Part shown: piece by piece, positions 1 to 60,815 of the stretch
Numbering within the stretch: position 1 is the first letter of the stretch
Layout: each line of letters begins with the position of its first letter
Notes under the pieces: model-generated
Seen by the model: the letters and a program-made list of their open reading frames with translations, nothing else
Told to the model about the DNA's origin: nothing
Database searches by the model: none
Translations under genes and position numbers: made by a program
Origin: a virus
IMG/VR virus record: IMGVR_UViG_3300018025_000004
Location: 1 to 61,807 of that record
Strand: one strand, 5' to 3'
Length of the DNA stretch: 61,807 bases

Positions 1-125
1 CGGCTCGTCGTGGTGTGTGTATCCACCACGACAGTTTTTCCAATCACGTATTACGACGCCGGCTGTAAGTGACTTAGCGCGGCTCGTCGTGGTGTGTGTA
101 TCCACCACGACAGTTTTTCCAATTA
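1..125. repeat. Terminal 79-bp direct-repeat unit, 1.6 tandem copies (1-79, 80-125)
   Basis: nt 1-67 are letter-for-letter identical to nt 61741-61807. The unit contains inverted CCACGAC cores (TCGTGGTG..CACCACGA). Confidence 0.9.
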
Positions 126-129
126 CACA

Positions 130-301
130 CCACGACGGTTTTTCTTTGTATCCCTCACGCTAGAGTTTCCAATCACACCCTACGACGTTAATTCTTTGGG
201 CCACCGTGTCCCAAACACACACCACGACGCGCGCGCGTTGGCTTGTGACTACTGTGCCTCAAGCTCCACGATGAGAATTCTTTGGGCCACCGTGTCTCAA
301 A
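130..301. repeat. Iteron-like CCACGAC copies interleaved with two operator-like palindromes
   Basis: CCACGACGGTTTTTCTTTGTATCCC (130-154), CTACGACGTTAATTCTTTG (~180-198) and CCACGATGAGAATTCTTT (266-283) resemble the 25-bp iterons at 61148-61290. The palindromes TTTGGGCCACCGTGTC(C/T)CAAA lie at 195-215 and 281-301. Confidence 0.7.
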
Positions 302-384
302 CCATCACGAGCGTGGGCTGCGTTACGGTTAATGAAATTCGACACGCAAAAGAAAACCCACACTTTCGCGCGGGCTTTCTTTAT

Positions 385-420
385 CTCTTTTGTCACGTTC
401 GCCAAACGCCCAAGGGCGCT
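385..420 (-). promoter_or_regulatory. Diverged copy of the hairpin leader module (core AACGCCCAAGGGCGCT, 405-420)
   Basis: TCTCTTTTGTCACGTTCGCCAAACGCCC.. matches the right-arm modules. It lies 6 nt 3' of the stop of the 206-aa gene, so it may act here as a terminator-like hairpin. Confidence 0.5.
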
Positions 421-425
421 CAGCG

Positions 426-1046
426 TCAGGCGGTCAACGCCTTGGTTCCGGCGATAAAGCCCTCAATGACGTGGCGCGCGTCGAATGTCAAAACCTTGGC
501 GTTTTCGTTTTCAAAGCGTGAGAGCATGGCCGCGAGCTGGCCCATGAACGCGATGACACTGGCATTGTCAGCACATTTCTCAATGCGCACGTTATCAGCG
601 TTGAGCGCGACTTTCGCATCTTTGGTAACCGGCGCGTCAACAGGCGCTTTCACGTGGCGCGCGCCGCCGCGCTTGTCAGGATTGACGATTTCAGCCTGCG
701 AAGCAAGCCTATTCCAATGCTTTTCGGCGGCCCGAACCGTGTCATGTTGTGCTTTCGTGCGATAGCCCGCGACTCCTACTTTCTTGTCAGTGAAGGGCTT
801 GAGGCCAATGATGCTAGCAGCCTCATCCTGCTTAATGCCAGTAGCAGCGCAAAGCCGGCCTTCGACATAAGCGCCACGCGAGTTCGCCCAAACGATAATA
901 TAAGCAGCCTCATCGAGATCGGCAAGCGCATTGGTGATGAGAGCGATGGTAGCAGCACGCGCCACTTCGAAGCGCACGAACGATGCGCCTTCCGTCTTAG
1001 CGGCGGAGAAAACGCGAGCGGCGAGATTGTCAGTGAGAACGGCCAT
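426..1046 (-). CDS. Hypothetical protein, 206 aa; candidate DNA-binding regulator by context only
   Basis: ATG at 1046 is preceded by AGGGG 7 nt upstream. Two identical 29-bp operator-like repeats lie upstream. The gene is divergent from the late operon. No family recognised. Confidence 0.7.
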   Translation of the reverse strand: MAVLTDNLAARVFSAAKTEGASFVRFEVARAATIALITNALADLDEAAYIIVWANSRGAYVEGRLCAATGIKQDEAASIIGLKPFTDKKVGVAGYRTKAQHDTVRAAEKHWNRLASQAEIVNPDKRGGARHVKAPVDAPVTKDAKVALNADNVRIEKCADNASVIAFMGQLAAMLSRFENENAKVLTFDARHVIEGFIAGTKALTA

Positions 1047-1077
1047 GATAAACCCCTGTTAGTTAGGTGACGTTATG

Positions 1078-1098
1078 TTTGGGCCATCATGGCCCAAA
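1078..1098. promoter_or_regulatory. Operator-like perfect palindrome TTTGGGCCATCATGGCCCAAA
   Basis: 21-bp dyad 32 nt upstream of the 206-aa gene start. It is part of the exact 29-bp repeat CGTTATGTTTGGGCCATCATGGCCCAAAG. Confidence 0.7.
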
Positions 1099-1184
1099 GC
1101 CCACTAGGGCAGGTCAGCACCGCGCTAACCCCTCAACTATCCCTATAGTCGCATAGATCGCAGGCAATGTCAACAGTCGTTATG

Positions 1185-1205
1185 TTTGGGCCATCATGGC
1201 CCAAA
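1185..1205. promoter_or_regulatory. Second copy of the palindrome TTTGGGCCATCATGGCCCAAA
   Basis: Identical 29-bp repeat, 107 bp from the first copy. Confidence 0.7.
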
Positions 1206-1228
1206 GGCAATTCAAAGATTGCTTTTTC

Positions 1229-1265
1229 GGGGAGGCAAAGGGGCGGAGGGGGGTTTGGGGAGGGG
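1229..1265 (+). other. G-quadruplex-type G-run cluster
   Basis: Five runs of four or more G (1229-1232, 1240-1243, 1248-1253, 1257-1260, 1262-1265) separated by 1-7 nt, followed by the AT-rich stretch CATATATAAAATACC. Confidence 0.5.
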
Positions 1266-1349
1266 CTAGGCTCGGGCATTGCCCGTCACATATATAAAAT
1301 ACCTACTTTTTTCAAGATACATCGTACACGTTAGTACCCTTCAATTATA

Positions 1350-1470
1350 CCCCATCCTCGTGGCTTGCTCGTGCTCGGCCTCAGCCTCAGGCCTGCGCTC
1401 TTGCGCGCGTCACCGAACATCACCGAGCCATAACGCCCAAGGGCGTTTGGCGAGCGTGACAAAAGAGAAA
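1350..1470 (+). promoter_or_regulatory. 60-bp outer element plus hairpin leader module, rightward-facing copy (core 1432-1447)
   Basis: 1350-1414 is the reverse complement of 59551-59609 and 60679-60738. It is followed by CATCACCGAGCCATAACGCCCAAGGGCGTTTGGCGAGCGTGACAAAAGAGAAAGAG. Confidence 0.7.
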
Positions 1471-1580
1471 GAGAAAAAATTTTGTGTGCAAAATCAACAC
1501 CATATCCACCATCCTAGTGTGGCACATATCTTGCAATCGCGCGTGGGCGCGCAGGCGTATAAAGAAAGACACCCACACCC

Positions 1581-1609
1581 TTGACCTGCACACCCGTGGA
1601 GGTTACCAT
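1581..1609 (+). promoter_or_regulatory. Sigma70-like promoter candidate (TTGACC-17 nt-TACCAT)
   Basis: The -35 TTGACC lies at 1581-1586, the spacer is exactly 17 nt, and the -10 TACCAT lies at 1604-1609. Confidence 0.35.
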
Positions 1610-1615
1610 GCTCGC

Positions 1616-1707
1616 ACAACATTGGGGAATGTTGAGGCTGATCTCTGTGGACATGGGGAGAAAGCAACCAAGGGCGGTCCTGCCATCGGGGCCGCCCTTG
1701 TGTTTTT
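1616..1707 (+). ncRNA. Candidate ~90-nt small RNA or leader
   Basis: The predicted start is followed immediately by the hairpin CAACATT-GGGG-AATGTTG (1617-1634). The transcript would end at an intrinsic terminator. The alternative is a 57-codon ORF (1608..1781) behind GGAGG. Confidence 0.3.
1670..1707 (+). terminator. Intrinsic terminator candidate
   Basis: Stem AAGGGCGG / CCGCCCTT followed by GTGTTTTTG. Confidence 0.5.
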
Positions 1708-1740
1708 GCAGGATCAAAGTTACTGTGGAGGCACCCAAAC

Positions 1741-1790
1741 ATCACCGAGCCACACCGCCCAAGGGCGGTTGGCGAACGTGACCAAAGAGA
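1741..1790 (+). promoter_or_regulatory. Hairpin leader module immediately upstream of terS (core ACCGCCCAAGGGCGGT, 1754-1769)
   Basis: Same module with a compensatory A-T to C-G change in the stem. GTGACCAAAGAGAGCGCTGAGCG then runs directly into the ATG at 1801. Confidence 0.7.
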
Positions 1791-1800
1791 GCGCTGAGCG

Positions 1801-2256
1801 ATGGACACCGACTTCGACCCTGCCGGCCTCGGCTGGCCACCCACACTCCCGCTGGAGATTGCCATGGCTGAGATGCCGGTGCGCGAGATATGCGAGAGCT
1901 ATGGCCTGACCCGTGACGACTGGAAGCGGTTGAAGACCGACGAGAAGTTCATCGCCCAAGTGGAGCGTTACCGCGAAGAGCTTATGAAGGACGGCGTGTC
2001 CTTCCAGATGAAGGCTCGGCTACAGGCTGAGGTGCTCCTCAAAGAAAGCTGGCGCATGATCCACGCAACGGATGCGCAGGTGCCACCGGCGGTCAAGGCC
2101 GACCTCATCAAGAGCACCATGAAGTGGGCGGGTGTGGATCAGAGCGCCAAGGCGGCTGCGATGGTGCAGGCCCCGGCCCTGCTGATTAACATCCAGTTCG
2201 CGGGCAAGCCGCCGAGCTTCGCCCCGACCATTGAGGCCAAGGCCATAGAGGCCTAA
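1801..2256 (+). CDS. Putative terminase small subunit
   Basis: 151 aa, immediately 5' of terL. HTH-like N-terminal segment (REICESYGLTRDDWKRL). The assignment rests on position. Confidence 0.55.
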   Translation: MDTDFDPAGLGWPPTLPLEIAMAEMPVREICESYGLTRDDWKRLKTDEKFIAQVERYREELMKDGVSFQMKARLQAEVLLKESWRMIHATDAQVPPAVKADLIKSTMKWAGVDQSAKAAAMVQAPALLINIQFAGKPPSFAPTIEAKAIEA

Positions 2257-2257
2257 T

Positions 2258-2333
2258 GTCACTCCACCCGCGCGTCACTCCACCCACGCGTCACTCCACC
2301 CGCGCGTCACTCCACCCGCGCGTCACTCCACCC
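2258..2333 (+). repeat. Five direct repeats of GTCACTCCACCC at 16-bp spacing
   Basis: Copies start at 2258, 2274, 2290, 2306 and 2322, with GCGC/ACGC spacers. The array fills the terS-terL intergenic gap. Confidence 0.9.
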
Positions 2334-2343
2334 GCGCGAGACC

Positions 2344-2394
2344 AACGCCTTGAAGGCGTTGTCGAGCAAGGGGAATAAAAGAGAGAGAATAAAA
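2344..2394 (+). promoter_or_regulatory. Diverged hairpin (AACGCC-TTGAA-GGCGTT) plus AAAGAGAGAG leader in front of terL
   Basis: Same architecture as the leader modules: hairpin, ~20 nt, AAAGAGAG, then ATG. Confidence 0.4.
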
Positions 2395-3885
2395 ATGACC
2401 TCAATCATTGACTATAAGCCACCGCCGACGATTGAGCAGTTCATCGTGGATTACACGCCGGGCGCGCTGTTCTACGACTGGGTGGTTGGCCCCGTAGGGT
2501 CCGGCAAGACCACCGGGCTGTTCTTCAAGCTGGTGTATCTAGCCAGTCTCCAGTCACCCTCCCGCGATGGCGTCAGACGCTCACGCGCGGTGATCGTGCG
2601 TAACACCATGCCTCAGCTCAAGGACACCACCATCGTGTCGTGGAGCTACTGGTTCAAGGAGGGCGAGGCTGGTGAGTGGAACTTGACGGATAGGACGTTC
2701 ACGCTCCGGTTCGGCGACGTGGAGTGCGTGGTGCTGTTCCGCCCGCTCGATACGCCGGATGACGTGCAGCGCGTGCTGTCACTGGAGGTGAGCTTCGCCA
2801 TCATCGATGAGTTCGTGCAGATCAGGAAAGAGATTGTCGAAGCGCTGTCGGCGCGTCTCGGTCGTTACAAGCTCCCTGACGGCACCAAGCCCACCATCTG
2901 GGGCATGTGGGGTTCGTCCAACCCCTCGACGGAAGATAACTGGTGGTACGACTACCTGAATGACCCTGACACCTGCGAGACCATCGACCTAACGCGTGAC
3001 GACCCGGATGTCCTGCGGGCTAGGCGTGTCATGTCCGACGATACACGCAACGTGCGCTACTTTATCCAGCCGTCCGGTCAACGCCCGGAGGCTGAGAACC
3101 TTGAGAACCTGCCGGGTGGGCGGGAGTATTATACGAACCAGATGAAGGGCAAGAGCGAGACGTGGATCAAGCAGTTCGTGGACGCTGAGTGGGGTTACAG
3201 CGTCAGTGGCAAGCCGGTGGTCAACACGTTCAAGCCGGAGCTGCATATCGCCAAGAAGCGCCTCGTCTATAATCCCCTGCTCCCGCTGATCGCTGGTGTG
3301 GACCCCGGCCTTGCTGGCTCGGCGTTCATATTTGGGCAGCAGGACTTGCATGGACGGCTCAACGTGCTGGGGGAGTGCGTGCAGTCGGGCTATGGCGCGG
3401 AGCGGCTTGTGGCTGAGGTGCTTAAGCCCTACACGCGGCGGCGGTTCCCGCAGGCCAACCTGATCCTCGCGCCTGATCCGGCGGCGGCGAACCGCTCGCA
3501 GAACGACGAGAAGCAGGTGGTGCAGACACTCAGGAAGCACTACCCGGTGAGCATCGAGAGCAACAACCGCTTGCCGCTGCGCTTGAACGCCATCGAGCAC
3601 TTCACAACGAGGCTGGTGGATAGCGGCGCTGCCTTCCAGATCGACCCGTGGGAGTGCCCCATCACGGTGCGGGCGCTCAAGGGTGGTTGGCGGTGGGAGA
3701 TCAACGAGAAGAAGAGTATGATCTCCGGCGATGCCCCGGAGAAGAACGCCTATAGCCATCCCGGTGATGCCCTTGGCTATCTGTGCCGATACTTCCACAA
3801 GCAGACAGAACGTGAGTTGCGGTATGGTCCGCAGTCGGCTATATTTCGGCCACCGAGCTTCAAAAACCAGTACACATATCGCTGA
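2395..3885 (+). CDS. terL: Terminase large subunit
   Basis: Walker A GPVGSGKTT near the N-terminus, ~496 aa, located upstream of the portal gene. ATG 2395 (AAAGAGAGAG upstream) is preferred over the TTG at 2350 in the ORF track. Confidence 0.85.
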   Translation: MTSIIDYKPPPTIEQFIVDYTPGALFYDWVVGPVGSGKTTGLFFKLVYLASLQSPSRDGVRRSRAVIVRNTMPQLKDTTIVSWSYWFKEGEAGEWNLTDRTFTLRFGDVECVVLFRPLDTPDDVQRVLSLEVSFAIIDEFVQIRKEIVEALSARLGRYKLPDGTKPTIWGMWGSSNPSTEDNWWYDYLNDPDTCETIDLTRDDPDVLRARRVMSDDTRNVRYFIQPSGQRPEAENLENLPGGREYYTNQMKGKSETWIKQFVDAEWGYSVSGKPVVNTFKPELHIAKKRLVYNPLLPLIAGVDPGLAGSAFIFGQQDLHGRLNVLGECVQSGYGAERLVAEVLKPYTRRRFPQANLILAPDPAAANRSQNDEKQVVQTLRKHYPVSIESNNRLPLRLNAIEHFTTRLVDSGAAFQIDPWECPITVRALKGGWRWEINEKKSMISGDAPEKNAYSHPGDALGYLCRYFHKQTERELRYGPQSAIFRPPSFKNQYTYR

Positions 3886-4208: not shown

Positions 4209-6416
4209 ATGGTCCGAGCTATTGCCCCGGTGGATATTGCCACTCTGACGCCGCCGAACGTGCCGGTCAAGACACCCAAGGATGCGCCGGTCAAGGTCAT
4301 CCATGGGCGTGACCTCAAGCGTGTCGGTGACAAGTTCAACGACCTGTTCACGCAGTACAAGAGCGACAGGCGTCTCGCGGAGCTACGCTGGCTGCGTAAT
4401 CAGCGGCAGTATCTGGGGCTCTATGACCCGGAGATTGACAAGGAGATGTCGCCCAACCGCTCGCGGGCGTATCCGCGTATCACGCGTGTTAAGTGTATCA
4501 GCGTCCTCTCCCGTCTTATGAACCTCATGTTCCAAGGCACCGAGGAAAACTGGACCATCGCGCCGAGCCCGGTTCCCAACTTCAAGGTTGCCGACGTTGA
4601 GGAAGCTATCACCTCCGCGCAGCAAGAAGATCAGGCCGCAGGGGTTCAGAGCACGCTGAGTATCGAGTATGTCAACACCGCGATGCAGCGGCTCGCGCGC
4701 AAGCGTGCGGATGAGCTTATCGACACGATCAAGGATCAGCTCCAAGAGATTGGCGGCAATCAATCGTCGGATTACGTGGCGCTCAACCGGAAGGCTGTGC
4801 AGTCCGGCATCATCTACGGCGTCGGCGTCCTGCGGGGGCCGTATGCCGTGTCGTTCAAGCAGGTGGACGTGTCTCTGGAGCCCATGACGAATAAGCCGGT
4901 GGTGACCGAGCGCACGCGGTATAAGCCGCTGTTCGAGTTCCTGCCGGTGTGGGACTTCTATCCCGACATGAGCGCCAAGACGCTGGAGGGCATGGACGGC
5001 TACTTCACACGCACCGCTATGTCCAAGGCGCAGGTGCGCGCATTGGCTGATCGTGAGGACTTCTTCGCGGACCAGATCAAGGACTATCTCAGGACGAATA
5101 CGGTGGGCAACTACCGCCCCACAGAGTATGAGACCGAGCTTCGCACCATGGGCGTTCGGACCAACGTCAATGAGATGAAGATCGAGACCATGAAATACGA
5201 GATCGTCACATGGCACGGCATGGTGTCCGGCGACTTCTTGCGCATGTGTGGGGTGGATGTCGATGACGACAAGTTGACCGATGACCTTGAGGCCGAGATT
5301 TGGATGATCGCCGGCAACGTCATCAAGGCCGATCTCAATACGTGGCGCAAGCTCGACATGCAGGTCAAGACGCTCCACACGTTCCTGTTCGATGAGGACG
5401 ATACGTCTCCGCTGGGTCAGGGGCTCCCCAACATTGTGCGCGACAGTCAGATGGCCATCAGCGCGGCGACCCGCATGTTGCTGGACAATGCGTCAGTGAT
5501 CTGCGGGCCGAACCTCGAACTGAACACCGATCTGCTGCGCGGCGATCAGGATTTGGCGTCCACGACCGCATACAAGATGTGGTATCGCGAGGGCACCGGC
5601 CCCGATGCGCAGTTTCCGGCTGTCCGCAACGTCGAGATCAACGGTCATCTGGACGAGCTGCTCAAGGTGATCGAGCTGTTCATGAAATTTGCCGATCAGG
5701 AGACCTTCGTGGGGCCTGCGACCGGCGGCGACATGGCGCAGTCACCCTCCGAACCCATGCGCACGGCGGCTGGAGCCTCCATGCTGCGTGGGGATGCTGC
5801 GCTGCCGTTCAAAGACATTGTGCGGCAGTTCGACCGGCTCACCCAGAGCCTGATCCAGAGCCTTGTGTGCTTCAACCGGGCGTTCAACCCCGACAAGGCC
5901 CACGAGGGTGACTATAATATCATCGCGCGTGGCGCGACTTCGCTCATTGCGAAGGAGGTTCGTGGTATGCAGGTTGACCAGCTTGCGCAGACCCTGACGC
6001 CGGAGGAGAAGGATCACGTCGATATGCGTGCGCTTGTCCGGCAACGGATGTTGACGCGGGACTTGGCCGACCTCTTGTTGCCCGAAGACGAGGTTGCGCG
6101 TAATCAAGCGCAGCGTTCGCAGCAGCAGGACCAGCAGCAGCAGCTCGCAACCGCTGCGCAGCAGGCCCAGACCCGCAAGTTGCTGGCCGATGCGTACAAG
6201 AACATCGCGGCTGGCAACAAGAATAACGTCGCGGCGGACGCTCACCAGATCGAGACCGCGCTTAATTTGATGGTGCAGGGGGTGCAAGGTGGTGGACAAG
6301 CTCAACAAGGAGCAGTTGACGGAGCTGCTGGACCGGATCAGCAACCTCAAGGGGACGCCGGTCCACTCGGACCTGATCCGACTGCTCAATTACCGGCTGG
6401 ACAAGTCCAAGGATGA
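4209..6416 (+). CDS. Portal protein
   Basis: 735 aa, in the position between terL and the scaffold/capsid genes. Q-rich C-terminal region. The last 128 nt overlap the next ORF out of frame. Confidence 0.75.
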   Translation: MVRAIAPVDIATLTPPNVPVKTPKDAPVKVIHGRDLKRVGDKFNDLFTQYKSDRRLAELRWLRNQRQYLGLYDPEIDKEMSPNRSRAYPRITRVKCISVLSRLMNLMFQGTEENWTIAPSPVPNFKVADVEEAITSAQQEDQAAGVQSTLSIEYVNTAMQRLARKRADELIDTIKDQLQEIGGNQSSDYVALNRKAVQSGIIYGVGVLRGPYAVSFKQVDVSLEPMTNKPVVTERTRYKPLFEFLPVWDFYPDMSAKTLEGMDGYFTRTAMSKAQVRALADREDFFADQIKDYLRTNTVGNYRPTEYETELRTMGVRTNVNEMKIETMKYEIVTWHGMVSGDFLRMCGVDVDDDKLTDDLEAEIWMIAGNVIKADLNTWRKLDMQVKTLHTFLFDEDDTSPLGQGLPNIVRDSQMAISAATRMLLDNASVICGPNLELNTDLLRGDQDLASTTAYKMWYREGTGPDAQFPAVRNVEINGHLDELLKVIELFMKFADQETFVGPATGGDMAQSPSEPMRTAAGASMLRGDAALPFKDIVRQFDRLTQSLIQSLVCFNRAFNPDKAHEGDYNIIARGATSLIAKEVRGMQVDQLAQTLTPEEKDHVDMRALVRQRMLTRDLADLLLPEDEVARNQAQRSQQQDQQQQLATAAQQAQTRKLLADAYKNIAAGNKNNVAADAHQIETALNLMVQGVQGGGQAQQGAVDGAAGPDQQPQGDAGPLGPDPTAQLPAGQVQG

Positions 6417-11361: not shown

Positions 11362-14300
11362 ATGGCACAGATCACCGATGTCCAGCAGCCCGCGTTGCCG
11401 GCTGTTGCCAACCTCCCGTCGTTCGCACCACCTCGGGGGTTTGGGCGGGCGTCGTTGGATCAGCTCAATGGTGGTCAACCATCGTTGATTGGTGGCGCAC
11501 TCTCCGCTGGCACACATGAGCTGGGTAGCCAGTTCGGCGGGTTTGTCAGCGCGCTCGGTACGACGCTGGGCATGAACGGCGTCTCTGACTGGGGTCAGCA
11601 GGTTGCGCAGTCGCAGGCAGCGGCTGCGGCGCAGAATGGCCGACCGGACTTGGATGCTGACCCGTGGTCGCCGTCTGGTATGGCTTACGGGCTGGTTAAG
11701 GGCCTGCCGATGTTGACGGGTGTCGCGCTTGCACATCGTCTCGGTGCGAAGCGGCTGGCTCCTGCTCTCGGTGTGTCTGAGGGCGTCGGTGGCACACTCG
11801 GTGCTGGTGCGGCGTTGTATCCCGGCATGGTCGGCAGCAACGTCGAGACTGCGCGCAAAGCCAACGGAGGGGAGCTGACACCGAACGCTGCGGCTGCCTC
11901 GCTGGCTATGGGTGTCCCGGAGGCGGCGATTGGCTCCATTGTGCCGGGTAATGTCGATAAGATGCTCGCGCGCGGTATGGCCGGCGACTGGCTGTCGCGG
12001 CTCGGGAAGGGTGCCGCGATTAACGCTGGTATGGGTGGTGTGCAGGGCGCTGCCAACACCGTGTTCAACCAGTTCCTTGGTGACCAGAGCCGCCCCATCG
12101 CGGATCGGGCGAATGACGTTGTGCAGTCGGCGCTGCAAGGCGCGTTTCAGGGCGGCGTCATCGGTGGCGTCTTCGGTGTTGTGGGTGGTCGGAAGCGTGT
12201 TGCCCCGACCGCGACGGATGACGCCCTGACGAGCGCTGCGACGGTGCCGGGCGCGACGGATGCCGAGCCCGCGAAGACCACTGTTGGCCCTGCTGACGCG
12301 AGCGGTGCTGCGCAGGTGGGCCTCGACCTCCCCGAGCAGCAGACGCCGCAGATGGCGGATCACCCGCTTGCGCCTGAGATGCAAGGCCCGACGATCCCGC
12401 CCGAGATGGTGAATGGCCGGCAGATGTCGCTGTTCACGCCCGACGAAGAGGGTGCGCGGCAGGCCGACATTTTCAAGATGCGCGGCGTGGTGCGTGATGC
12501 GCTTGGCAAGGCTGAGCTGGACCCCAACACCGATACGTCCTTCGTGGATAATCTGAACGCCACCAACACGCCGGAGCTGATTAAGGCCCTACGCGAGCAG
12601 GTAACGCGCTACGACCGCGACAAAGACGGTGCGATGCCTGCGTGGTTCAAAGAGCTTGCCGCTGCGCATGGCGTTGTGGACGAGACGGGCAAGACGCGTA
12701 ACCTCACCGATGAACATGCTGACCTGCTCACGCAGATCGAGACACAGAAGGGTGCCGGGAACGGTACGTATCAGACACTTTTGGAGCGCGCCGCGCAGCG
12801 TAAGGCGGAAGGCAATGACGCTCGGCAGACCGTCCTATTGGATCAAGCAAATACGATCCGCGCGCGAAACGATGAAAAGGTCGCAGCCCTCCAAAAGCGA
12901 GCCGACGAACTAACGCCGCTCATGGACCAGCACGCGCAGGCTGACGCGCTGCCGGATAAGTTCTCGCCGAAGCAGGTGCCTGACACGCTGAGCGACAAAC
13001 CGAAGGCCGCAGCGCTCTATCAGCAGATGGAGCTTTTGCGCGACCACTCGCCTGATCCCAAGATCGCTGAGCGTGCTGCACGGGCGTCTGATTTGCTGCG
13101 GTCGGGGCGGCAGGACCAGATGCGCCGTGCAGCGCAGATTGCGCAGGACTTCGCTGATCGTGTGGCGCGTGAGTGGGGTTACAGCGACAGGGACAAGCCG
13201 GTCGCTCCTGCCGTGGACGAGGACGCTGCCCGGCGAGCCGCTGACGACACTACCCAGCCGGCTCCGGCCCCTGACACGACCGTGGACGAGGACGCTGCCC
13301 GGCGAGCCGCTGACGACACTACCCAGCCGGCTCCGGCCCCTGACACGACCGTGGACGAGGACGCTGCCCGGCGGGTGGCCGCCGAGGCTCCCGAGACGCC
13401 TGCGGAGCGGGAAGCCGCAGTAACTGCGCCCCCGGCCACCCCGGATGCCCAGCCTGTGGTCGCTGCCCCGGAGGGCATCCCGTTCATGGTCACCAAGGCC
13501 ATGCGTAAAACGCTGCTGGAGCGGGGCTATACGGTTGACGACGTGCGCAACATGACGCCTGCGAAGGCGCGGGAGGCGTTGCAAGCTCCCACGGCTCCCA
13601 CAGCTCCCCCGGTTGTGGATAATCCCACCCCGTCGCCCGAAGCGCAGATGAGGGTTCGGGATGAGATTGCCCCGTCGATGTTGGAGGCTCAGCGTAAGGA
13701 GCTTGAGGATCACGTCGCGCGCACGCAGGCGGATCGTGCCACGCGGTTGCAGGCTGAGAGGCAGGCCGCACTTAGCCAGACCGGGGCGTATCAGCCGCCC
13801 AAGAAGAGCATCTCCCTCGGGGGTATCCAGCGGTCGAAGGACGCACTGGCGACCATGGCTGAGCCGGCGGGTCGGACGCAGGCTGACGTGGATGCCGAGC
13901 ACCTGATCTCCAATGGTGCGACCGGCGCGCAGGTGCTCAAGCATATTGAGGACACCACCACCGATCCGAACTTGCGCCGTCTGGCCAAGAAGATGCGGGA
14001 GAGGGGCCTTGACCCCACAATCTCGTATGGCACGCGGGATGAGATTGAGGCGGATGCGCAGGCGACGCAGGGTAAGACCTTCGACGCCACGAACGCGGAC
14101 GCGGCGTATAACGAGACGACGAACCATGTGTGGCTGGCATCGCGTGAGAACACGCACCAGAATATCATGCACGAGATGATGCACTCCGCGACGTGGAAGG
14201 CGATTGAGGCCGGCGGACCCATCGCGAAGCGTATGAACGACCTGTTTGAGCAGGTTAAGCGGTCGGCAGCAGTGCGTCTGGATAAGGCTGCGGGCAAAGT

Positions 14301-17300
14301 GCCGTATGGTCTGACCAACCTGCACGAGTTTGTTGCTGAGGCGTTCACGAACCCGTGGTTCCGTGACACCCTCTCTAAGGTCACGATGCCCGGTGAGACC
14401 AAGACCCTCTGGGGCAAGTTCAAGGATGCGGTTAAGCGGTTGTTCAACCAGCCAGAGAAGACCCGCACGGCGCTCGATGAAATTATGGACATGGGGCAAG
14501 ACCTCATGGACGAGCACCAGAAGATCGACGTGTCGCCGCAAAGTGAGGCGATCATGGCCAAACGCGTTGCGGATGAGCATGAGAAAGTCAGCATAGTAGG
14601 CGCAGGCATCTTCCATCAAGCGCAGGATAGCCTCAGCAAGCTGGCCAACCTCGTCTCAAATCCGAAAGAGATGGGCACGAAGATCAGTGCGTTCGCTGAC
14701 TACAATATGACCCGCACACAGATGATCCGGCGTCATGCGGCTGAGTTTGCGTCCGGCGCAACGCAGCACATGGAGGATGCGTGGGCAGCGCACACGGCCA
14801 TTGGTCAAGCTGCGGCAACGACCGGCTTGCATGTTAAGGTCGCCATCGACGGGATTAAGGATGTTGCGACGCGTGATGCGGCGCTGCGGGATGCGTTTTG
14901 GTCGAGCCAGATCGGGGCGCACCCGTTCAAGACGTTTGCGGAGCAGCCGAACCTCCACAACCGTAAGGATCGGGCGATCATTCAGCCGGAAATCGACCGC
15001 ATCGCGAAGGCGTTCAACGACGTGTACCGCCAGAAGGGCGCGCGTGACGCGATCACGCAGGCGCACGCGGCTGGTGAGGCGCAGAACGCATCGCAGATGA
15101 TGCTGGGGCTGCACGAGTTTATGCGCCGGGAGAAATTCGGTGACTTGATTACCGATGCGGACGTGCACGACCAGTTCGCGAATAATGCCGATGCGCACAC
15201 CCCGGCGACTGCGGCTACGTTCTATAGGGCTGCGCTGGATAAGCAGGTCGCCAACATCAAGCAGTTTGTGGATGCGCAGGAAGGCTCTGTCGCCCATCTG
15301 CCCCAGAACGATAGTGCGCGGCAGGCTGTGACGGCGCAGCTCAAAGACTTGAAGGGTCAGCTCAACGCAATCAGCAGTAACTTGATCACCCACGAGCACT
15401 CGCCGTATATGCCTTCCGGTCGTGAGGGTGAATACGCGGCGGCGTTCACGTTGAAGCTCGGCGACGATGGGCAAATCCACCCGCAGGCGTTGGCGGCGTT
15501 ACAGGACGGGCTTGCTGCGCGCGGCCTGAATGTCGGCATCAATCAGCATGTGGATAACCCGAGTGTGTTTATTCGGGTGGGTACGCTCGACAAAGCGCAG
15601 CAGATTGCCGATCTCGCGCAGGATTTGGGTAAGCGCGGCTTGCTGGACGAAAAGGGCGATGCTCCACTGGCAAAGCGGTTGGATGACGATGCCATGGCGA
15701 GCCGCACGCGGCCTGCGTGGGTGAAGCAGATGATGGACAGTGTGGCGCAGGATACGCGTATTCCCGAGGAGCAGCGGGCCGCGATCCATGACCAGCTTCG
15801 TCAGACGTGGGCTGACATTTTGCCGTCGCGTGACGTGGTGCAGCTCGCCCGCAAAAACGTCCAAGGCTTCTCCACTGACGTGGCGCGGGCGCTGGATCGT
15901 CGTAACAGTGTGTGGGCGAACGGGCTTGCCAATCTCGTGACGCAAGAGCGCAAGAACGTCGCGTTTGGTGAGATGCGGGATGATATTGGCAATCTTCAAC
16001 GGCAGCCCGATGTATCCAAGACGGTCAGCGCGCAGAACTGTCTCAATGAGCTGGCTACGCGTGAAGTTGGCCGTGACTGGCGTCCGCAAACGACAGGGGG
16101 TGATACCTTCCGCTCCGCGCTCCATGCGTGGCAGCTCGGCGTGTCCCCCGCGTATTTTGTGCTGGAGCTGTCGCAGGCCCCCATGTTCGTGCTTCCGGCT
16201 ATGTCTGCGGAGCGGGGTATTGCGAAATCCACTGCTGCGCTGACCAGCAACCTTGCTATGACGATTAAAGTCATGCGCGCTATTTCGAGTGGTCCGCTGG
16301 GCAAGTACGGCGTGTTCACCGCGCAGGGGTTGAAGGACGCGAATATCCCGCCGGCTATCGCTGAGCATCTCCTCAAGTGCAACAATCGTGGCTGGTTTGA
16401 AAACTCAGCCACGCGTGAGCTTGGGATGTCTGCGGACGGTCGCGCACAAACCACCACCCAGAAGGCAATCCACTGGGCGAACTTGTCCGCGCTCTACACC
16501 GAAGTTGCCATGCACGTAAACACGGCTCTGGCCGTGAAATCGCTGCACGATACCAAGCCATTCGCGGAGGGGCTGGATGCCGCGACTGACCGCATCATGG
16601 AGAAGGGTCACTGGAAGTGGGGCGCAGGAGAGAACGCGCGCTCCATGGGCAAGCAGGGTTTTGCCGGCAAAGCGACGCCCTATCTGACGCAGTTCATGGG
16701 CTGGCAGATGAAGGCTCTTGAGACCTATTACCGCGAGCTGCACACTGTGTTCAGCGGCGATGCCTCGCGTGATGCGCGAATACAGTCCGCTAAGTTTATC
16801 GGCGGTCATATGGCTGCGGTTGTGGCGTTCTCCGGCTTGTCCGGTTTGCCCACGACGCCGCTTATGGGTCTGGCGTCGAAGGTCATGAACACGCTGACCG
16901 GGTCGGATCAATACGATTTCGAGCAGAACTATCGTAGTTATCTTACAAGCATGTTCGGCAAGGAGTTCGGTGACGCCATGGCGCGCGGTCTTCCGCATCT
17001 GGCCGGATTTGACATGAGCGACGTGGGTGATGAGGGCTTGGTCCCCGGCGGTCGGTTCCTCGCAGATCAGCGGAAGTGGCAGGATGCTTCCAAAGACGCC
17101 GCGTGGCGGTCGATGGGTGCGGGTATCGGCTTCGCGAGCAACGCTGTTGGCGCGATGCAGGATTGGTCGATGGGTAACCCCGAAGCAGCTCTCCGCAAGT
17201 TGCTGCCGGCCACGCTGCGTAACCCGTATGAAGCGTACATGATGCACGAGCATGGCTACGTCAACAACTCGGGCGTGAAGGCACCGATCCAGCCGACGAG

Positions 17301-17664
17301 CGCGGATGTGTGGAAGAAAGCTCTGGGCCTTGAGCCCGCGAGCATGAAGCAGAATGAGGACTTACGCGATCAGGCGGAACGCACCGAGACCATGCAGCAC
17401 AACATCTCCGGTGCCATTGAGGCGAATATCAAGCGCGCAATATCGTATGGTGATGGCTCCTCGTTGCAGGATGCGATACAGAAGGCGCAGGCGTTCAATC
17501 AGACCCACCCGAATACCCCTATCGACGTGAACAAGGCGGCGGTGGGTGTCCAGATGGAGAACGCACGCGCGATTGGGCTGGGGCTGCCTGCTGGCACCGG
17601 CAAACCGACAGATGCGCGCTTGCGCACACGCCTCGACCCGTATTATATTCCGGGTAAGTCCTAA
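11362..17664 (+). CDS. Giant virion-associated multidomain protein (2100 aa) with an ArdC/zincin-like HExxH motif
   Basis: Single uninterrupted ORF. Gly-rich N-terminus. A 69-bp repeat is present 2.4 times. The motif NIMHEMMHSATW...LHEFVAEAF lies near residues 938-995. Confidence 0.8.
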   Translation: MAQITDVQQPALPAVANLPSFAPPRGFGRASLDQLNGGQPSLIGGALSAGTHELGSQFGGFVSALGTTLGMNGVSDWGQQVAQSQAAAAAQNGRPDLDADPWSPSGMAYGLVKGLPMLTGVALAHRLGAKRLAPALGVSEGVGGTLGAGAALYPGMVGSNVETARKANGGELTPNAAAASLAMGVPEAAIGSIVPGNVDKMLARGMAGDWLSRLGKGAAINAGMGGVQGAANTVFNQFLGDQSRPIADRANDVVQSALQGAFQGGVIGGVFGVVGGRKRVAPTATDDALTSAATVPGATDAEPAKTTVGPADASGAAQVGLDLPEQQTPQMADHPLAPEMQGPTIPPEMVNGRQMSLFTPDEEGARQADIFKMRGVVRDALGKAELDPNTDTSFVDNLNATNTPELIKALREQVTRYDRDKDGAMPAWFKELAAAHGVVDETGKTRNLTDEHADLLTQIETQKGAGNGTYQTLLERAAQRKAEGNDARQTVLLDQANTIRARNDEKVAALQKRADELTPLMDQHAQADALPDKFSPKQVPDTLSDKPKAAALYQQMELLRDHSPDPKIAERAARASDLLRSGRQDQMRRAAQIAQDFADRVAREWGYSDRDKPVAPAVDEDAARRAADDTTQPAPAPDTTVDEDAARRAADDTTQPAPAPDTTVDEDAARRVAAEAPETPAEREAAVTAPPATPDAQPVVAAPEGIPFMVTKAMRKTLLERGYTVDDVRNMTPAKAREALQAPTAPTAPPVVDNPTPSPEAQMRVRDEIAPSMLEAQRKELEDHVARTQADRATRLQAERQAALSQTGAYQPPKKSISLGGIQRSKDALATMAEPAGRTQADVDAEHLISNGATGAQVLKHIEDTTTDPNLRRLAKKMRERGLDPTISYGTRDEIEADAQATQGKTFDATNADAAYNETTNHVWLASRENTHQNIMHEMMHSATWKAIEAGGPIAKRMNDLFEQVKRSAAVRLDKAAGKVPYGLTNLHEFVAEAFTNPWFRDTLSKVTMPGETKTLWGKFKDAVKRLFNQPEKTRTALDEIMDMGQDLMDEHQKIDVSPQSEAIMAKRVADEHEKVSIVGAGIFHQAQDSLSKLANLVSNPKEMGTKISAFADYNMTRTQMIRRHAAEFASGATQHMEDAWAAHTAIGQAAATTGLHVKVAIDGIKDVATRDAALRDAFWSSQIGAHPFKTFAEQPNLHNRKDRAIIQPEIDRIAKAFNDVYRQKGARDAITQAHAAGEAQNASQMMLGLHEFMRREKFGDLITDADVHDQFANNADAHTPATAATFYRAALDKQVANIKQFVDAQEGSVAHLPQNDSARQAVTAQLKDLKGQLNAISSNLITHEHSPYMPSGREGEYAAAFTLKLGDDGQIHPQALAALQDGLAARGLNVGINQHVDNPSVFIRVGTLDKAQQIADLAQDLGKRGLLDEKGDAPLAKRLDDDAMASRTRPAWVKQMMDSVAQDTRIPEEQRAAIHDQLRQTWADILPSRDVVQLARKNVQGFSTDVARALDRRNSVWANGLANLVTQERKNVAFGEMRDDIGNLQRQPDVSKTVSAQNCLNELATREVGRDWRPQTTGGDTFRSALHAWQLGVSPAYFVLELSQAPMFVLPAMSAERGIAKSTAALTSNLAMTIKVMRAISSGPLGKYGVFTAQGLKDANIPPAIAEHLLKCNNRGWFENSATRELGMSADGRAQTTTQKAIHWANLSALYTEVAMHVNTALAVKSLHDTKPFAEGLDAATDRIMEKGHWKWGAGENARSMGKQGFAGKATPYLTQFMGWQMKALETYYRELHTVFSGDASRDARIQSAKFIGGHMAAVVAFSGLSGLPTTPLMGLASKVMNTLTGSDQYDFEQNYRSYLTSMFGKEFGDAMARGLPHLAGFDMSDVGDEGLVPGGRFLADQRKWQDASKDAAWRSMGAGIGFASNAVGAMQDWSMGNPEAALRKLLPATLRNPYEAYMMHEHGYVNNSGVKAPIQPTSADVWKKALGLEPASMKQNEDLRDQAERTETMQHNISGAIEANIKRAISYGDGSSLQDAIQKAQAFNQTHPNTPIDVNKAAVGVQMENARAIGLGLPAGTGKPTDARLRTRLDPYYIPGKS
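13213..13376 (+). repeat. 69-bp in-frame tandem repeat, 2.4 copies (VDEDAARRAADDTTQPAPAPDTT)
   Basis: 13213-13281 and 13282-13350 are identical; a partial third copy follows. Confidence 0.9.
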
Positions 17665-57636: not shown

Positions 57637-57667
57637 TGTCTTACTCTCTTTAGTTGGGTCATGAATG

Positions 57668-57718
57668 TTTGGGACATTCTGGTTTGGGACACGAAAGTTT
57701 GGGACATGGTGTCCCAAG
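57668..57718. promoter_or_regulatory. Operator array: three direct TTTGGGACA half-sites at 15-bp spacing, the last forming a palindrome
   Basis: Half-sites start at 57668, 57683 and 57698. The dyad TTTGGGACATGGTGTCCCAAG spans 57698-57718, 32-82 nt upstream of the transposase-like start. Confidence 0.7.
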
Positions 57719-58132: not shown

Positions 58133-58213
58133 CGCTTTCTCCTTTGTCACGTTCTCTTTTGTCACGTTCGCCAAACGCCCTTGGGCGTTATGGCTCGGTG
58201 ATGTTCGGTGATG
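58133..58213 (-). promoter_or_regulatory. Hairpin leader module (core 58174-58189) plus two GGTGATGTT(C) units
   Basis: GTCACGTTC.. x2, then CGCCAAACGCCCTTGGGCGTTATGGCTCGGTGATGTTCGGTGATGTT. Confidence 0.7.
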
Positions 58214-58555: not shown

Positions 58556-58675
58556 CGCTCTCTTTGATCACGTTCTCTTTTGTCACGTTCGCCAAACGCC
58601 CTTGGGCGTTATGGCTCGGTGATGTTCGGTGATGTTCGGTGATGTTCGGTGATGTTCGGGACACCATGTCCCAAA
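58556..58675 (-). promoter_or_regulatory. Hairpin leader module (core 58595-58610), four 10-bp GGTGATGTTC units and the operator TTCGGGACACCATGTCCCAAA (58655-58675)
   Basis: Exact repeat family. The operator abuts the stop codon of the 232-aa gene. Confidence 0.7.
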
Positions 58676-59376: not shown

Positions 59377-59609
59377 GTTTATTCTCTCTTTTGTCACGTT
59401 CTCTTTTGTCACGTTCTCTTTTGTCACGTTCGCCAAACGCCCTTGGGCGTTATGGCTCGGTGATGTTCGGTGATGTTCGGTGATGTTCGGTGATGTTCGG
59501 TGATGTTCTCTTTTGTCACGTTCGCCAAACGCCCTTGGGCGTTATGGCTCGGTGACGCGCGCAAGAGCGCAGGCCTGAGGCCGAGCACGAGCAAGCCACG
59601 AGGATGGGG
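59377..59609 (-). promoter_or_regulatory. Two tandem leader modules (cores 59436-59451, 59528-59543), GTCACGTTCTCTTTT x3, TGATGTTCGG x5 (59461-59508) and the 60-bp outer element (59551-59609)
   Basis: All are exact or near-exact copies of sequences at 58.1-58.7 kb, 60.4-60.7 kb and 1.35-1.47 kb. Confidence 0.75.
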
Positions 59610-60382: not shown

Positions 60383-60738
60383 GATGTTCGCTCTCTCTCT
60401 CTTGTCACGTTCGCCAAACGCCCTTGGGCGTTATGGCTCGGTGATGTTCGGGACACCATGTCCCAAAGGTTAGCCGAACGCCCTTGGGCGTTATGGCTCG
60501 GTGATGTTCGGTGATGTTCGCTCTTTTGTCACGTTCGCCAAACGCCCTTGGGCGTTATGGCTCGGTGATGTTCGGGACACGATTGTTCGGGACATGCTGT
60601 CCCAAACCAGAATGGCCGGCAGCGCCGGCCATACGTGGTCCCAAAGGTTAGCCGAACGCCCTTGGGCGTTATGGCTCGGTGATGCGCGCAAGAGCGCAGG
60701 CCTGAGGCCGAGCACGAGCAAGCCACGAGGATGTGGGG
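60383..60738 (-). promoter_or_regulatory. Array of four hairpin cores (60417, 60477, 60541, 60655), operator 60447-60467, inverted composite element c (60571-60645) and outer 60-bp element (60679-60738)
   Basis: Densest repeat cluster in the window. No ORF with a plausible start. Confidence 0.75.
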
Positions 60739-60815
60739 ACAGACCCCGACTTACCTATGTACTATACACCACCCCCAAGGCGTTGTCAAGGGGGTCACCC
60801 TCGTGGCTTGCGCGT

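What the first reader, a model, noticed from the sequence alone, without database searches (positions are those of the whole stretch)
1350..1800. Rightward copies of the module head the late operon, and one shows a compensatory stem substitution
Copy 1754-1769 reads ACCGCCCAAGGGCGGT against the consensus AACGCCCAAGGGCGTT. Position 2 changes A to C and its pairing partner, position 15, changes T to G, so base pairing is preserved.

A double change that keeps the stem intact argues that the hairpin itself (as RNA or extruded DNA) is under selection, not merely the primary sequence.

The same module family therefore serves both the early leftward genes and terS/late genes. That is unexpected if it were simply an early promoter.
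Basis: seen in the sequence. Interest (0 to 1): 0.65.

Follow-up and report, generated by a model that had tools for sequence, protein, structure and literature searches.

The report
Repeated leader hairpin cassette before phage genes
A short GC-rich stem-loop, repeated about a dozen times in the untranslated leaders of a 62-kb phage's first early genes and its two terminase genes, keeps its base pairing through matched double changes, so it is a real selected hairpin within a portable ribosome-binding-site cassette and not a promoter; what it does is still unknown.

Summary
Window 1754-1769 reads ACCGCCCAAGGGCGGT against the consensus AACGCCCAAGGGCGTT. Positions 2 and 15 change together, turning A-U into C-G.

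One such event is weak evidence alone (chance about 0.02). A wider set of related modules supports it. These include a partial copy at 405-420, a hairpin before terL at 2343-2361, and copies from close relatives (L119, L158, L162). In that set 98.6% of stem cells pair. Four of seven stem pairs change on both sides. Pair 2/15 appears as A-U, C-G, U-A and G.U.

The hairpin belongs to a cassette: C/A-rich tandem repeats, then GAG, a 2-4 bp lower helix, a bulged pyrimidine, a 7-8 bp stem, CGA(G/A)C and a purine-rich ribosome-binding site. Six of the twelve window hairpins lie 31-59 nt upstream of a start codon.

It has no sigma-70 hexamers and no U tract, and no phage RNA polymerase or sigma factor was found. 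I read it as an RNA-level leader element. It also marks sites where genes were gained or lost.

"Heads the late operon" is only partly right. A conserved promoter, a short RNA and a terminator lie between the two rightward copies. The family is confined to this phage's close clade.

The parts
1352..1431 (+). Element C, rightward copy, running up to the hairpin. It is a roughly 75-nt conserved structured segment and carries small insertions compared with the two leftward copies.
   Evidence: Three copies are identical apart from one base and small insertions in the rightward copy, while their upstream sequences differ completely. The long stem shows two compensated pairs against the L162 homologue. 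This stretch is replaced by unrelated sequence in L158.
1421..1460 (+). Module copy with the consensus hairpin at 1432-1447. The 3' flank reads CGAGC where other copies read CGAAC. No start codon follows it.
   Evidence: 47.5 bits with model R1.
1581..1609 (+). Sigma-70-type promoter-like site, TTGACC-17-TACCAT. It starts the conserved late leader and is not part of the module.
   Evidence: Relatives have better -10 elements at the same place: L158 TATAGT, L160 TATAGT, L161 TATGGT.
1669..1708 (+). Strong intrinsic terminator: 14 pairs followed by TGTTTTTG. It lies between the two rightward module copies.
   Evidence: The stem covaries and the loop GCCAUCGGG is invariant in four lineages.
1743..1782 (+). 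Variant module copy with hairpin 1754-1769, ACCGCCC AA GGGCGGT. It lies in the terS leader, with its stem ending 31 nt before the ATG at 1801.
   Evidence: folding; 45.7 bits with R1.
1801..2256 (+). Putative small terminase, 151 aa. The assignment rests on its position next to terL only.
   Evidence: no Pfam family, one PHROG of unknown function. terL follows at 2395-3885.
2258..2338 (+). Tandem array of GTCACTCCACCCGCGC, 5.1 copies. It is the counterpart of the GAACATCACC arrays, placed upstream of the terL-type hairpin.
   Evidence: In strains L149, L151 and L153 one alignment gap falls somewhere in window 24-2400; I infer that it reflects copy number of this array.
2334..2372 (+). terL-type module: GCGCGAG ACC, then CAACGCCT TGA AGGCGTTG, then TCGAGCAAGGGG. 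The terL ATG is at 2395.
   Evidence: 42.4 bits with R1.
392..431 (-). Partial module with hairpin 405-420: AGCGCCC TT GGGCGTT on the - strand, with G.U at pair 2/15 and an inverted loop. It sits between the stop codon of ORF 426-1046 (-) and an intrinsic terminator at about 347-375 (-).
   Evidence: 34.4 bits with R1.
60642..60681 (-). Module copy with hairpin 60655-60670. It follows the leftward copy of element C downstream of the sigma-70 promoter at 60789-60761. Its 3' flank is a hybrid (TTCGGCTAACC) that matches a gene end followed by a B palindrome.
60528..60567 (-). Module copy with hairpin 60541-60556, in the untranslated leader array.
60464..60503 (-). Module copy with hairpin 60477-60492. 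It has the hybrid 3' flank, as does the copy at 60655.
60404..60443 (-). Module copy with hairpin 60417-60432, ending 34 nt upstream of the ATG (60382) of the first early gene (254 aa).
59515..59554 (-). Module copy with hairpin 59528-59543. It follows the second leftward copy of element C, just after the first early gene.
59457..59508 (-). Array of GAACATCACC, 5.2 copies. Shorter arrays of the same unit lie at 58616-58659, 58195-58215 and 60498-60520.
59423..59462 (-). Module copy with hairpin 59436-59451. It is followed by 3.1 copies of ACGTGACAAAAGAGA (59385-59431) and the ATG at 59376 of the DUF5983 gene.
58582..58621 (-). Module copy with hairpin 58595-58610, ending 39 nt upstream of a small ORF whose ATG is at 58555.
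58161..58200 (-). Module copy with hairpin 58174-58189, ending 41 nt upstream of the ATG at 58132 (103-aa gene).

Best explanation
The hairpin is a selected stem-loop that acts in RNA. It is part of a portable 5'-leader and ribosome-binding-site cassette.

**Cassette layout, 5' to 3'**
1. C/A-rich tandem repeats: GAACATCACC, or GTCACTCCACCCGCGC before terL.
2. (C)GAG.
3. A 2-4 bp lower helix.
4. A bulged U or C.
5. A 7-8 bp GC-rich stem with a 2-3 nt loop.
6. CGA(G/A)C.
7. A purine-rich, weak Shine-Dalgarno region. Six of the twelve window hairpins are then followed by a start codon 31-59 nt after the stem; the other six have none.

**Proposed working**
Host RNA polymerase transcribes through the cassettes from ordinary sigma-70 promoters (60789-60761 on the - strand, 1581-1609 on the + strand). 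The stem-loop then works after transcription. It would hold the neighbouring A-rich ribosome-binding site in a defined, unpaired context and protect or delimit the mRNA.

The near-identical cassettes also serve as sites of homologous recombination. Through these, genes are gained, lost and duplicated.

**Shown**
- The repeat family and its significance.
- Pairing preserved through compensatory and G.U changes.
- Orientation matching the genes.
- No sigma-70 hexamers and no U tract.
- Gene insertions and deletions at the cassettes.

**Inferred**
- That the hairpin acts in RNA and not in DNA.
- The stabilising or insulating role in translation.
For: **Pairing**
- 11 copies against 0.59 expected.
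- The extended fold (UCAC/GUGA, GCCA/UGGC and the stem) has dG -19.9 and z -4.7.
- On 10 variants the main stem is 98.6% paired, and 4 of 7 pairs change on both sides. No shuffle reaches the covariation score (0 of 500), and the slid controls are far lower.
- L158 (terS 84% identical) aligns in register without manual help and flips two pairs.
- L162, the orthologue of the first early gene at 83% identity, has ATCGCCC TGA GGGCGAT, so pair 2/15 is U-A there.

**Sense strand**
- Two of the three non-Watson-Crick cells are G.U when read on the sense strand: 405-420 on the - strand, and GGTGTT in L119.

**Transcription context**
- Canonical promoters and canonical U-tract terminators exist elsewhere in the genome, and the module matches neither.
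- No RNA polymerase or sigma factor was found.
- The 2100-aa virion protein carries an HExxH motif and has no match among PDB sequences.

**Placement**
- Modules precede early genes, terS and terL alike.

**Recombination**
- L119 carries an extra small gene flanked by two module copies.
- Copies 60655 and 60477 have hybrid junctions with a gene end.
- In L158 the stretch holding C and the 1432 hairpin is replaced by unrelated sequence, and in L162 the hairpin after element C is missing.
Against: - Half of the window copies (6 of 12) are not directly followed by a start codon. These are the three copies in the leader array, plus 59528, 1432 and 405.
- The fold is equally stable on the opposite strand (-20.2).
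- Copies within the genome are almost identical over about 50 nt, unpaired flanks included. That fits sequence-specific recognition or recent spread better than purely structural selection.
- The comparative set is small: 10 variants from 4 lineages. I put the loop and two flank gaps into register by hand.
- More distant relatives (terL 57-70% identical) lack the module altogether, so terS expression does not need it.
- No transcript or probing data exist.
Confidence: 0.45

Rival explanations
1. The module is a phage-specific promoter, so the B palindrome plus the module would be a terminator-promoter cassette like the T4 PeSLs. It would be read by host RNA polymerase redirected by an unidentified phage factor, or by an undetected phage polymerase that recognises an extruded hairpin, as in N4.
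For: - About 50 nt is conserved in many copies oriented with the genes, as with T7 or N4 promoters.
- Tandem copies sit at the head of the early operon.
- The 1754 copy lies just downstream of a strong terminator.
- A B palindrome precedes several copies.
- Most proteins of this phage have no assigned function.
Against: - No -35 or -10 elements.
- No RNA polymerase or sigma family in any called gene.
- Hairpin sequences differ between orthologous sites while pairing is kept.
- The same element precedes both early and late genes.
- Copy 405 is followed by a terminator about 30 nt downstream.
- In relatives the equivalent palindromes sit in gaps of about 60 nt between genes, with no room for a promoter.
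Confidence: 0.12
2. The hairpin is the binding site of a phage-encoded sequence-specific protein. That could be an RNA-binding translational repressor or antiterminator (like a coat-protein operator, RegA or boxB), or a dimeric DNA-binding protein using the palindrome as an operator. The protein would control the leading early genes and the terminase genes together.
For: - Copies within the genome are near-identical, including a conserved bulged pyrimidine and lower helix.
- An array of copies in the early leader could titrate a protein.
- Element C and the hairpin form two adjacent stem-loops just after a strong promoter, and a copy lies upstream of the late-leader terminator.
Against: - Loops differ between variants: CAAG, UGA, GA and an inverted UU.
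- All four bases occur at position 2, so little besides pairing is constrained.
- Symmetric changes would weaken both half-sites of a DNA operator.
- No RNA-binding protein or N-like protein was identified.
- The boxA-like CGCTCTT in element C is not kept in L162.
Confidence: 0.18
3. The palindrome has no function of its own. It is a selfish element, or a by-product of recombination, spread by gene conversion or unequal crossing-over. The symmetric changes arise from intrastrand template switching between palindrome arms and not from selection.
For: - It is confined to one young clade.
- It is present at some orthologous sites and absent at others.
- There are tandem arrays and hybrid junctions.
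- CGAGC(A) direct repeats flank the hairpin, most clearly in L162 (GCGAGCA on both sides).
- The loop is inverted in copy 405.
- An IS1595-family transposase gene lies nearby at 56695-57717.
Against: - The asymmetric features (bulge, lower helix) are kept across variants.
- G.U states occur on the sense strand.
- Four stem pairs covary across lineages.
- No terminal inverted repeats flank the transposase gene.
- Template switching still requires the hairpin to form.
Confidence: 0.15

Closest known systems
PeSL cassettes (promoter-early stem-loops) of T4-type phages (PMC2839356, PMC4122927)
   Same: Both are short conserved regulatory cassettes containing a stem-loop, repeated between small early genes. 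Gene insertions, deletions and replacements between close relatives occur at the cassettes. Here that is seen as an extra gene flanked by two copies in L119, hybrid junctions in the window, and presence or absence at orthologous sites.
   Different: PeSLs combine a strong sigma-70-like promoter with a stem-loop that works as a terminator. This module has neither sigma-70 hexamers nor a U tract. It carries the ribosome-binding site and also precedes the late genes terS and terL.
Start-associated sequences (SAS) and extended SAS of Cluster K mycobacteriophages (PMC3203893)
   Same: Both are repeated motifs in one orientation that overlap the ribosome-binding region just upstream of start codons, in some cases with an inverted repeat immediately upstream. 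In both cases the function is unknown and the motif is specific to a lineage.
   Different: For the extended SAS, the authors report that departures in the two arms do not support RNA pairing, and they favour DNA-binding sites. Here the departures do preserve pairing. The stem here is 7-8 bp and not 17 bp, and some copies lack a downstream gene.
Lambda nut sites (boxA and boxB) and HK022 put RNAs
   Same: Stem-loops in leader RNA lie just downstream of an early promoter, and another copy lies upstream of a terminator that must be read through. Element C contains CGCTCTT, a 7-nt match to boxA as I recall it.
   Different: The boxA-like string is not kept in L162. The loop is not a GNRA-like pentaloop. 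There are about 12 copies, not two. No N-like protein was found. Antitermination was not tested.
N4 virion RNA polymerase hairpin promoters
   Same: Both are short GC-rich DNA hairpins (5-7 bp stem and 3-nt loop in N4, from my own knowledge) near the start of the early region.
   Different: No virion RNA polymerase was detected. The 2100-aa virion protein has no PHROG, Pfam or PDB-sequence match and carries an HExxH motif. The element also precedes late genes.
T7 RNase III processing sites and 5'-terminal stabilising stem-loops such as the ompA leader
   Same: Both are structured elements between genes or in leaders, placed ahead of each cistron of a polycistronic early transcript.
   Different: The extended helix here has only 14-15 pairs in three segments, which is short for RNase III. 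Processing was not tested.

Membership tests
PeSL (T4-type promoter-early stem-loop cassette) | Contains a strong sigma-70-like early promoter | tested here: not met
   The consensus scan finds no -35/-10 pair inside the module. The only hit (GTGACA-16-CATCAT at 60408) runs into the start codon.
PeSL (T4-type promoter-early stem-loop cassette) | The stem-loop is an effective transcription terminator | tested here: not met
   The stem is followed by TTTGG, TTG or TTC and not by a U tract. Canonical U-tract terminators are used elsewhere in this genome.
PeSL (T4-type promoter-early stem-loop cassette) | Gene insertions and deletions between close relatives are bounded by cassette copies | tested here: met
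   L119 has an extra gene flanked by two copies. There are hybrid junctions at 60655 and 60477. In L158 the stretch holding C and the 1432 hairpin is replaced, and in L162 the hairpin after C is missing.
SAS/ESAS of Cluster K mycobacteriophages | An asymmetric conserved motif in the Shine-Dalgarno position, 3-7 bp from the start codon | tested here: inconclusive
   A conserved purine-rich segment (ACAAAAGAGA or GCAAGGAGA) precedes the starts, but its spacing varies and 6 of 12 copies have no start codon.
SAS/ESAS of Cluster K mycobacteriophages | 17-bp imperfect inverted repeats whose departures do not support pairing | tested here: not met
   The stem is 7-8 bp, and departures preserve pairing in 98.6% of cells.
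Lambda-type nut site | A boxA sequence conserved upstream of the hairpin | tested here: not met
   CGCTCTT is present in the window's element C but replaced in the L162 homologue. Most hairpin copies have no element C.
Lambda-type nut site | A boxB hairpin with a conserved purine-rich pentaloop bound by an N protein | tested here: not met
   Loops are 2-4 nt and vary between variants. No N-like protein was found, although N proteins are hard to detect.
N4-type hairpin promoter | A virion-packaged RNA polymerase is encoded | tested here: not met
   No RNA polymerase family appears in any called gene. The giant virion protein has no match.
Intrinsic terminator | A GC-rich stem followed by a U tract | tested here: not met
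   The terminator scan reports no terminator-like site at any module hairpin; its only hit in the module region (1762-1745, - strand) pairs half of the 1754 hairpin with its upstream flank.
RNase III processing site | About 20 bp of mostly continuous double-stranded RNA | tested here: inconclusive
   The minimum-free-energy fold gives 14 pairs in three helices separated by a 3x4 internal loop and a bulge. Cleavage cannot be tested here.
Any Rfam family | A match at the gathering score | tested here: not met
   No match at gathering score over the whole window. Only chance-level sub-threshold hits were found in the two regulatory regions.

The most novel reading that the evidence does not exclude
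The stem-loop with its conserved bulged pyrimidine is the recognition element of a post-transcriptional regulon run by the phage. An unidentified phage or host RNA-binding factor would use it to co-ordinate processing, stability, translation or antitermination of the first early genes and of terS and terL. The composite of element C plus the hairpin, placed upstream of the late-leader terminator, would help polymerase read through that terminator. The same cassettes would act as the recombination joints that shuffle genes in this phage clade.
Probability: 0.15. Interest if true: 0.65.

Novelty: new variant of a known kind. Interest (0 to 1): 0.4.

Why it matters
Repeated regulatory cassettes in phage genomes, such as PeSLs, stoperators and SAS/ESAS, are known, but their mechanisms are mostly unsolved. 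This case is unusual in three ways:
- The comparative data favour base pairing over primary sequence.
- The element travels with the ribosome-binding site.
- It serves both early and packaging genes.

That makes it a small, testable model of how a leader hairpin affects phage gene expression and how such cassettes drive gene gain and loss. The phage group is uncultured. It comes from peat and soil metagenomes, and the closest isolate found is Pseudomonas phage Rollin at 42% terL identity. Any regulatory rule learned here would therefore be new for this group. If the element turns out only to stabilise or insulate mRNA, the result is ordinary.

Tried and rejected
**Searches for more module copies**
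- Degenerate flank pattern in viral contigs: only chance hits, none with a hairpin.
- Exact module patterns in viral and metagenome contigs: nothing.
- Type-2 hairpin pattern and a generalised pattern (GCGCGAG, gap, CGAGCAAGG): only L119 plus chance hits.
- Sensitive blastn of the regulatory regions against 29 related loci (terL 47-98% identical): no homologous module.
- Covariance model R1 over 33 sources: no new members beyond the training set.
- Megablast against GenBank phages: no match.
- Strain-level contigs L148-L154: identical copies, so no extra information.

**Searches for relatives of the neighbouring early genes**
- DUF5983 gene: none in viral contigs or in the protein database.
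- One 80%-identical homologue of the first early gene had no DNA on file.

**Known RNA families**
- Rfam at gathering score and by E-value: nothing credible.

**Phage polymerase or sigma factor**
- None found.
- The 2100-aa virion protein carries an HExxH motif and has no PDB-sequence relative.

**Side ideas**
- Phage-encoded sigma-54 activator: the AAA+ protein at 55391-56434 has a weak Sigma54_activat hit but no GAFTGA motif. It looks like a MoxR/CobS-type ATPase.
- Hairpins as miniature transposons of the IS1595-like gene: no terminal inverted repeats flank that gene, and the present/absent sites show no target duplication.
- Small ORFs reading through the modules (ATG at 1608, GTG in element C): rejected, because indels against L158 shift the frame.

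Full report
**Context**

The window is a complete phage genome of about 61.8 kb. Its first and last 68 nt are identical, and contig L148 from another assembly runs straight through the junction.

- Late and structural genes lie on the + strand from 1801 to about 33627. They include a putative terS (1801-2256), terL (2395-3885), the portal gene (4209-6416, best PHROG labelled head-tail adaptor) and a 2100-aa virion protein.
- Early and replication genes lie on the - strand from 60382 down to 33780. They include a DUF927 primase-helicase, a family A DNA polymerase and an SNF2 helicase.
- No RNA polymerase or sigma factor family was found in any called gene.
- The closest isolate found is Pseudomonas phage Rollin, at 42% terL identity.
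- Related uncultured genomes have 47-98% terL identity.

**The observation**

The 16-mer AACGCCCAAGGGCGTT, allowing up to 3 mismatches, occurs at 11 sites where 0.59 matches are expected. Eight sites are on the - strand between 58174 and 60670. Two are on the + strand (1432-1447 and 1754-1769). One partial copy at 405-420 is placed on the - strand by its 3' flank.

The 1754 copy reads ACCGCCCAAGGGCGGT, so positions 2 and 15 change together from A-U to C-G. Each single change costs 2-3 kcal/mol, and the double change gives -22.3 against -19.9 kcal/mol for the consensus. Given four substitutions in the 54-nt module, a compensated pair is expected by chance about 2% of the time.

Inside the window it is a single event. 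Near-identical strain contigs add nothing.

**Anatomy of the module**

Read in the direction of the genes, the module has these parts:
1. (GAACATCACC)n.
2. GAGCCA, T, AACGCCC, AA, GGGCGTT, TGGC, GAAC, GTGAC, AAAAGAGA.
3. (ACGTGACAAAAGAGA)n.
4. In six cases, a start codon 31-59 nt after the stem.

It folds into three stacked helices: UCAC/GUGA, then GCCA/UGGC, then a bulged U and the 6-7 bp stem. The fold has dG -19.9 and z -4.7. The opposite strand folds equally well.

In three places the hairpin is preceded by a nearly identical segment of about 75 nt, element C. Element C is itself a long imperfect stem-loop, with two compensated pairs against its L162 homologue.

**A wider family**

A related module sits before terL: five copies of GTCACTCCACCCGCGC, then GCGCGAG ACC, CAACGCCT TGA AGGCGTTG, TCGAGCAAGGGG, and the ATG.

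Close relatives carry further variants:
- L119 (terL 98% identical) has AGGTGTTG, which gives a G.U on the sense strand. It also has ATCGCCC TGA GGGCGTT, which has a U.U mismatch.
- L162, the orthologue of the first early gene at 83% identity, has ATCGCCC TGA GGGCGAT.
- L158 (terS 84% identical) has ACCGGGC GA GCCCGGT at the same place as window 1754-1769. MAFFT aligned it in register without my help.

All variants share GAG on the 5' side, a bulged pyrimidine, a short lower helix, CGA(G/A)C on the 3' side and a purine-rich ribosome-binding site.

I counted pairs on the 10 distinct variants:
- The main stem is paired in 98.6% of cells.
- Four of 7 pairs change on both sides.
- The covariation score is 0.368, against 0.118 for shuffles (0 of 500 reach it) and at most 0.083 for slid partners.
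- Pair 2/15 occurs as A-U, C-G, U-A and G.U.
- Two of the three non-Watson-Crick cells are G.U on the sense strand.

Caveats: the variants come from only four lineages, and I set the loop and two flank gaps in register by hand using N placeholders.

**What it is not**

- It is not a sigma-70 promoter. Canonical promoters exist elsewhere (60789-60761 TTGACA-17-TATAGT; 57819-57791; 1581-1609), but none lies inside the module.
- It is not an intrinsic terminator. There is no U tract, while canonical terminators are used elsewhere.
- It matches no Rfam family.
- The N4-type hairpin promoter reading lacks a polymerase. It also does not fit an element that precedes terS and terL.
- A DNA operator is unlikely. 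All four bases occur at position 2, and L158 flips two inner pairs.

**The late operon head**

Only the 1754 copy lies in the terS leader. Between the two rightward copies there is a block conserved in L158, L160 and L161:
- a sigma-70-type promoter;
- a non-coding stretch of about 90 nt;
- a strong terminator whose stem covaries while its loop GCCAUCGGG is invariant.

In L158 the stretch holding element C and the 1432 hairpin is replaced by unrelated sequence. Relatives at 64-65% terS identity have no hairpin before terS. The module is therefore a lineage-specific accessory of the leader and not the late promoter.

**Turnover**

Several observations show that the cassettes act as recombination joints, much as PeSLs do in T4-type phages (PMC2839356):
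- In L119 a small hydrophobic ORF is inserted between terS and terL, flanked by two module copies.
- Copies 60655 and 60477 have a 3' junction (GTTCGGCTAACC followed by a B palindrome) that matches the end of a gene. This suggests genes were deleted between cassettes.
- L162 lacks the 26-nt hairpin core between element C and CTAACC.
- One indel distinguishes strain L153 in the early leader, and one indel falls in window 24-2400 in strains L149, L151 and L153. I infer that these reflect (AG)n length and 16-nt repeat copy number.

More distant relatives lack the module. They carry their own perfect palindromes in short gaps between early genes. These correspond to the window's B family, TTTGGGACA-N3-TGTCCCAAA.

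**Verdict**

The hairpin is real, and its pairing is maintained. The best reading is an RNA stem-loop within a portable leader and ribosome-binding-site cassette, with a second role as a recombination joint (confidence 0.45).

The rivals are a protein recognition site (0.18), a functionless or selfish palindrome shaped by template switching (0.15), and a phage-specific promoter (0.12).

It resembles PeSLs and SAS/ESAS in layout but fails their defining tests. I therefore class it as a new variant of a known kind and of moderate interest.

Noticed in passing
window 1581-1712 (+); L158 372-505; L160 about 4249-4376; L161 about 741-862: The late leader is conserved: a sigma-70-type promoter, about 90 nt of non-coding RNA (with a CATTGGGGAATG-like motif) and a strong terminator. 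The terminator stem covaries, but its 9-nt loop GCCAUCGGG is invariant in four lineages. It lies 40-100 nt before terS. The layout recalls lambda pR'-6S-tR' and suggests regulated read-through.
   Followed up: partly
window 1520-1535 (+) and 22557-22572 (+); L158 250; L160 2918: There are two exact matches to the sigma-54 promoter consensus TGGCAC-N5-TTGCA, both on the late-gene strand (0.06 expected; at least 2 matches in 2 of 300 simulations). The first is conserved in L158 as TGGCAT-N5-TTGCA. No GAFTGA-type activator was found, so this may be chance.
   Followed up: partly
window 195, 1078, 1185, 43692, 51800, 55110, 57698, 58253, 58655, 59689, 60447, 60586, 61288: A second palindrome family (B) reads TTTGGGACA-N3-TGTCCCAAA; at 195, 1078 and 1185 one or both arms read GGGCC instead of GGGAC. 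Relatives each have their own version (TTTGCGACA.., TTTGTGACA.., GTCACGTNACGTGAC, CTGGGTAGCTACCCAG). Most copies sit in short gaps between an early gene's stop codon and the next ribosome-binding site.
   Followed up: partly
window 1078-1098 and 1185-1205: Two identical 21-bp palindromes, TTTGGGCCATCATGGCCCAAA, lie in the gap between the leftward 206-aa gene (426-1046) and the rightward leader. They flank a TTGACA on the - strand, which looks like an operator arrangement.
   Followed up: no
window 60735-60671 (-), 59605-59544 (-), 1352-1431 (+); L162 826-890: Element C is a segment of about 75 nt, identical in three copies apart from one base and small insertions in the rightward copy. It forms a long imperfect stem-loop, and two pairs are compensated in the L162 homologue (GGCC UCA GGCC against GGUC UAA GACC). 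Its boxA-like CGCTCTT is not conserved.
   Followed up: partly
window 56695-57717 (-): An IS1595-family transposase gene lies inside the phage early region, just downstream of a sigma-70 promoter (57819-57791) and B palindromes. Pfam hits are DDE_Tnp_IS1595 at 2e-26 and its zinc ribbon at 9e-14. No flanking terminal inverted repeats were found.
   Followed up: partly
L119 about 150-390, against window 2258-2394: The 98%-terL relative has a small hydrophobic ORF (about 24 aa, MVMFTMGVVTFALAILAIIITRRH) inserted between terS and terL. It is flanked by two copies of the terL-type module.
   Followed up: partly
window 2258-2338; L149, L151, L153; window 60390-60405 against L153: Strains differ by single indels. 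One falls in window 24-2400 in L149, L151 and L153, where terL is called as 537 aa instead of 496; I infer it lies in the 16-nt repeat array. One falls in the early leader of L153, where the module listing shows an extra AG in the (AG)n run at the ribosome-binding site of the first early gene.
   Followed up: partly
window 60800-61807 and 1-350: A non-coding region of about 1.3 kb is dense in repeats: 5.8 copies of a 25-bp unit (61148-61291), 80-bp units at both window ends, (AT)7.5 at 61484-61498, and many CCACGACG motifs. It is probably an origin or packaging region.
   Followed up: no
window 11362-17664 (+): The 2100-aa virion-module protein has no Pfam, PHROG or PDB-sequence match. It carries an HEMMH zincin-like motif and long low-complexity stretches.
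   Followed up: no
L159 3814-7125: In a relative with 64% terS identity, terL is called as 1103 aa with a faint LAGLIDADG hit. This suggests an intein or homing-endonuclease insertion.
   Followed up: no
window 347-375 (-): The intrinsic terminator after ORF 426-1046 (GCCCGCGC GAAA GUGUGGG UUUUCUUUU) uses two G.U pairs. These pair only on the - strand, which confirms leftward transcription through the partial module at 405-420.
   Followed up: no
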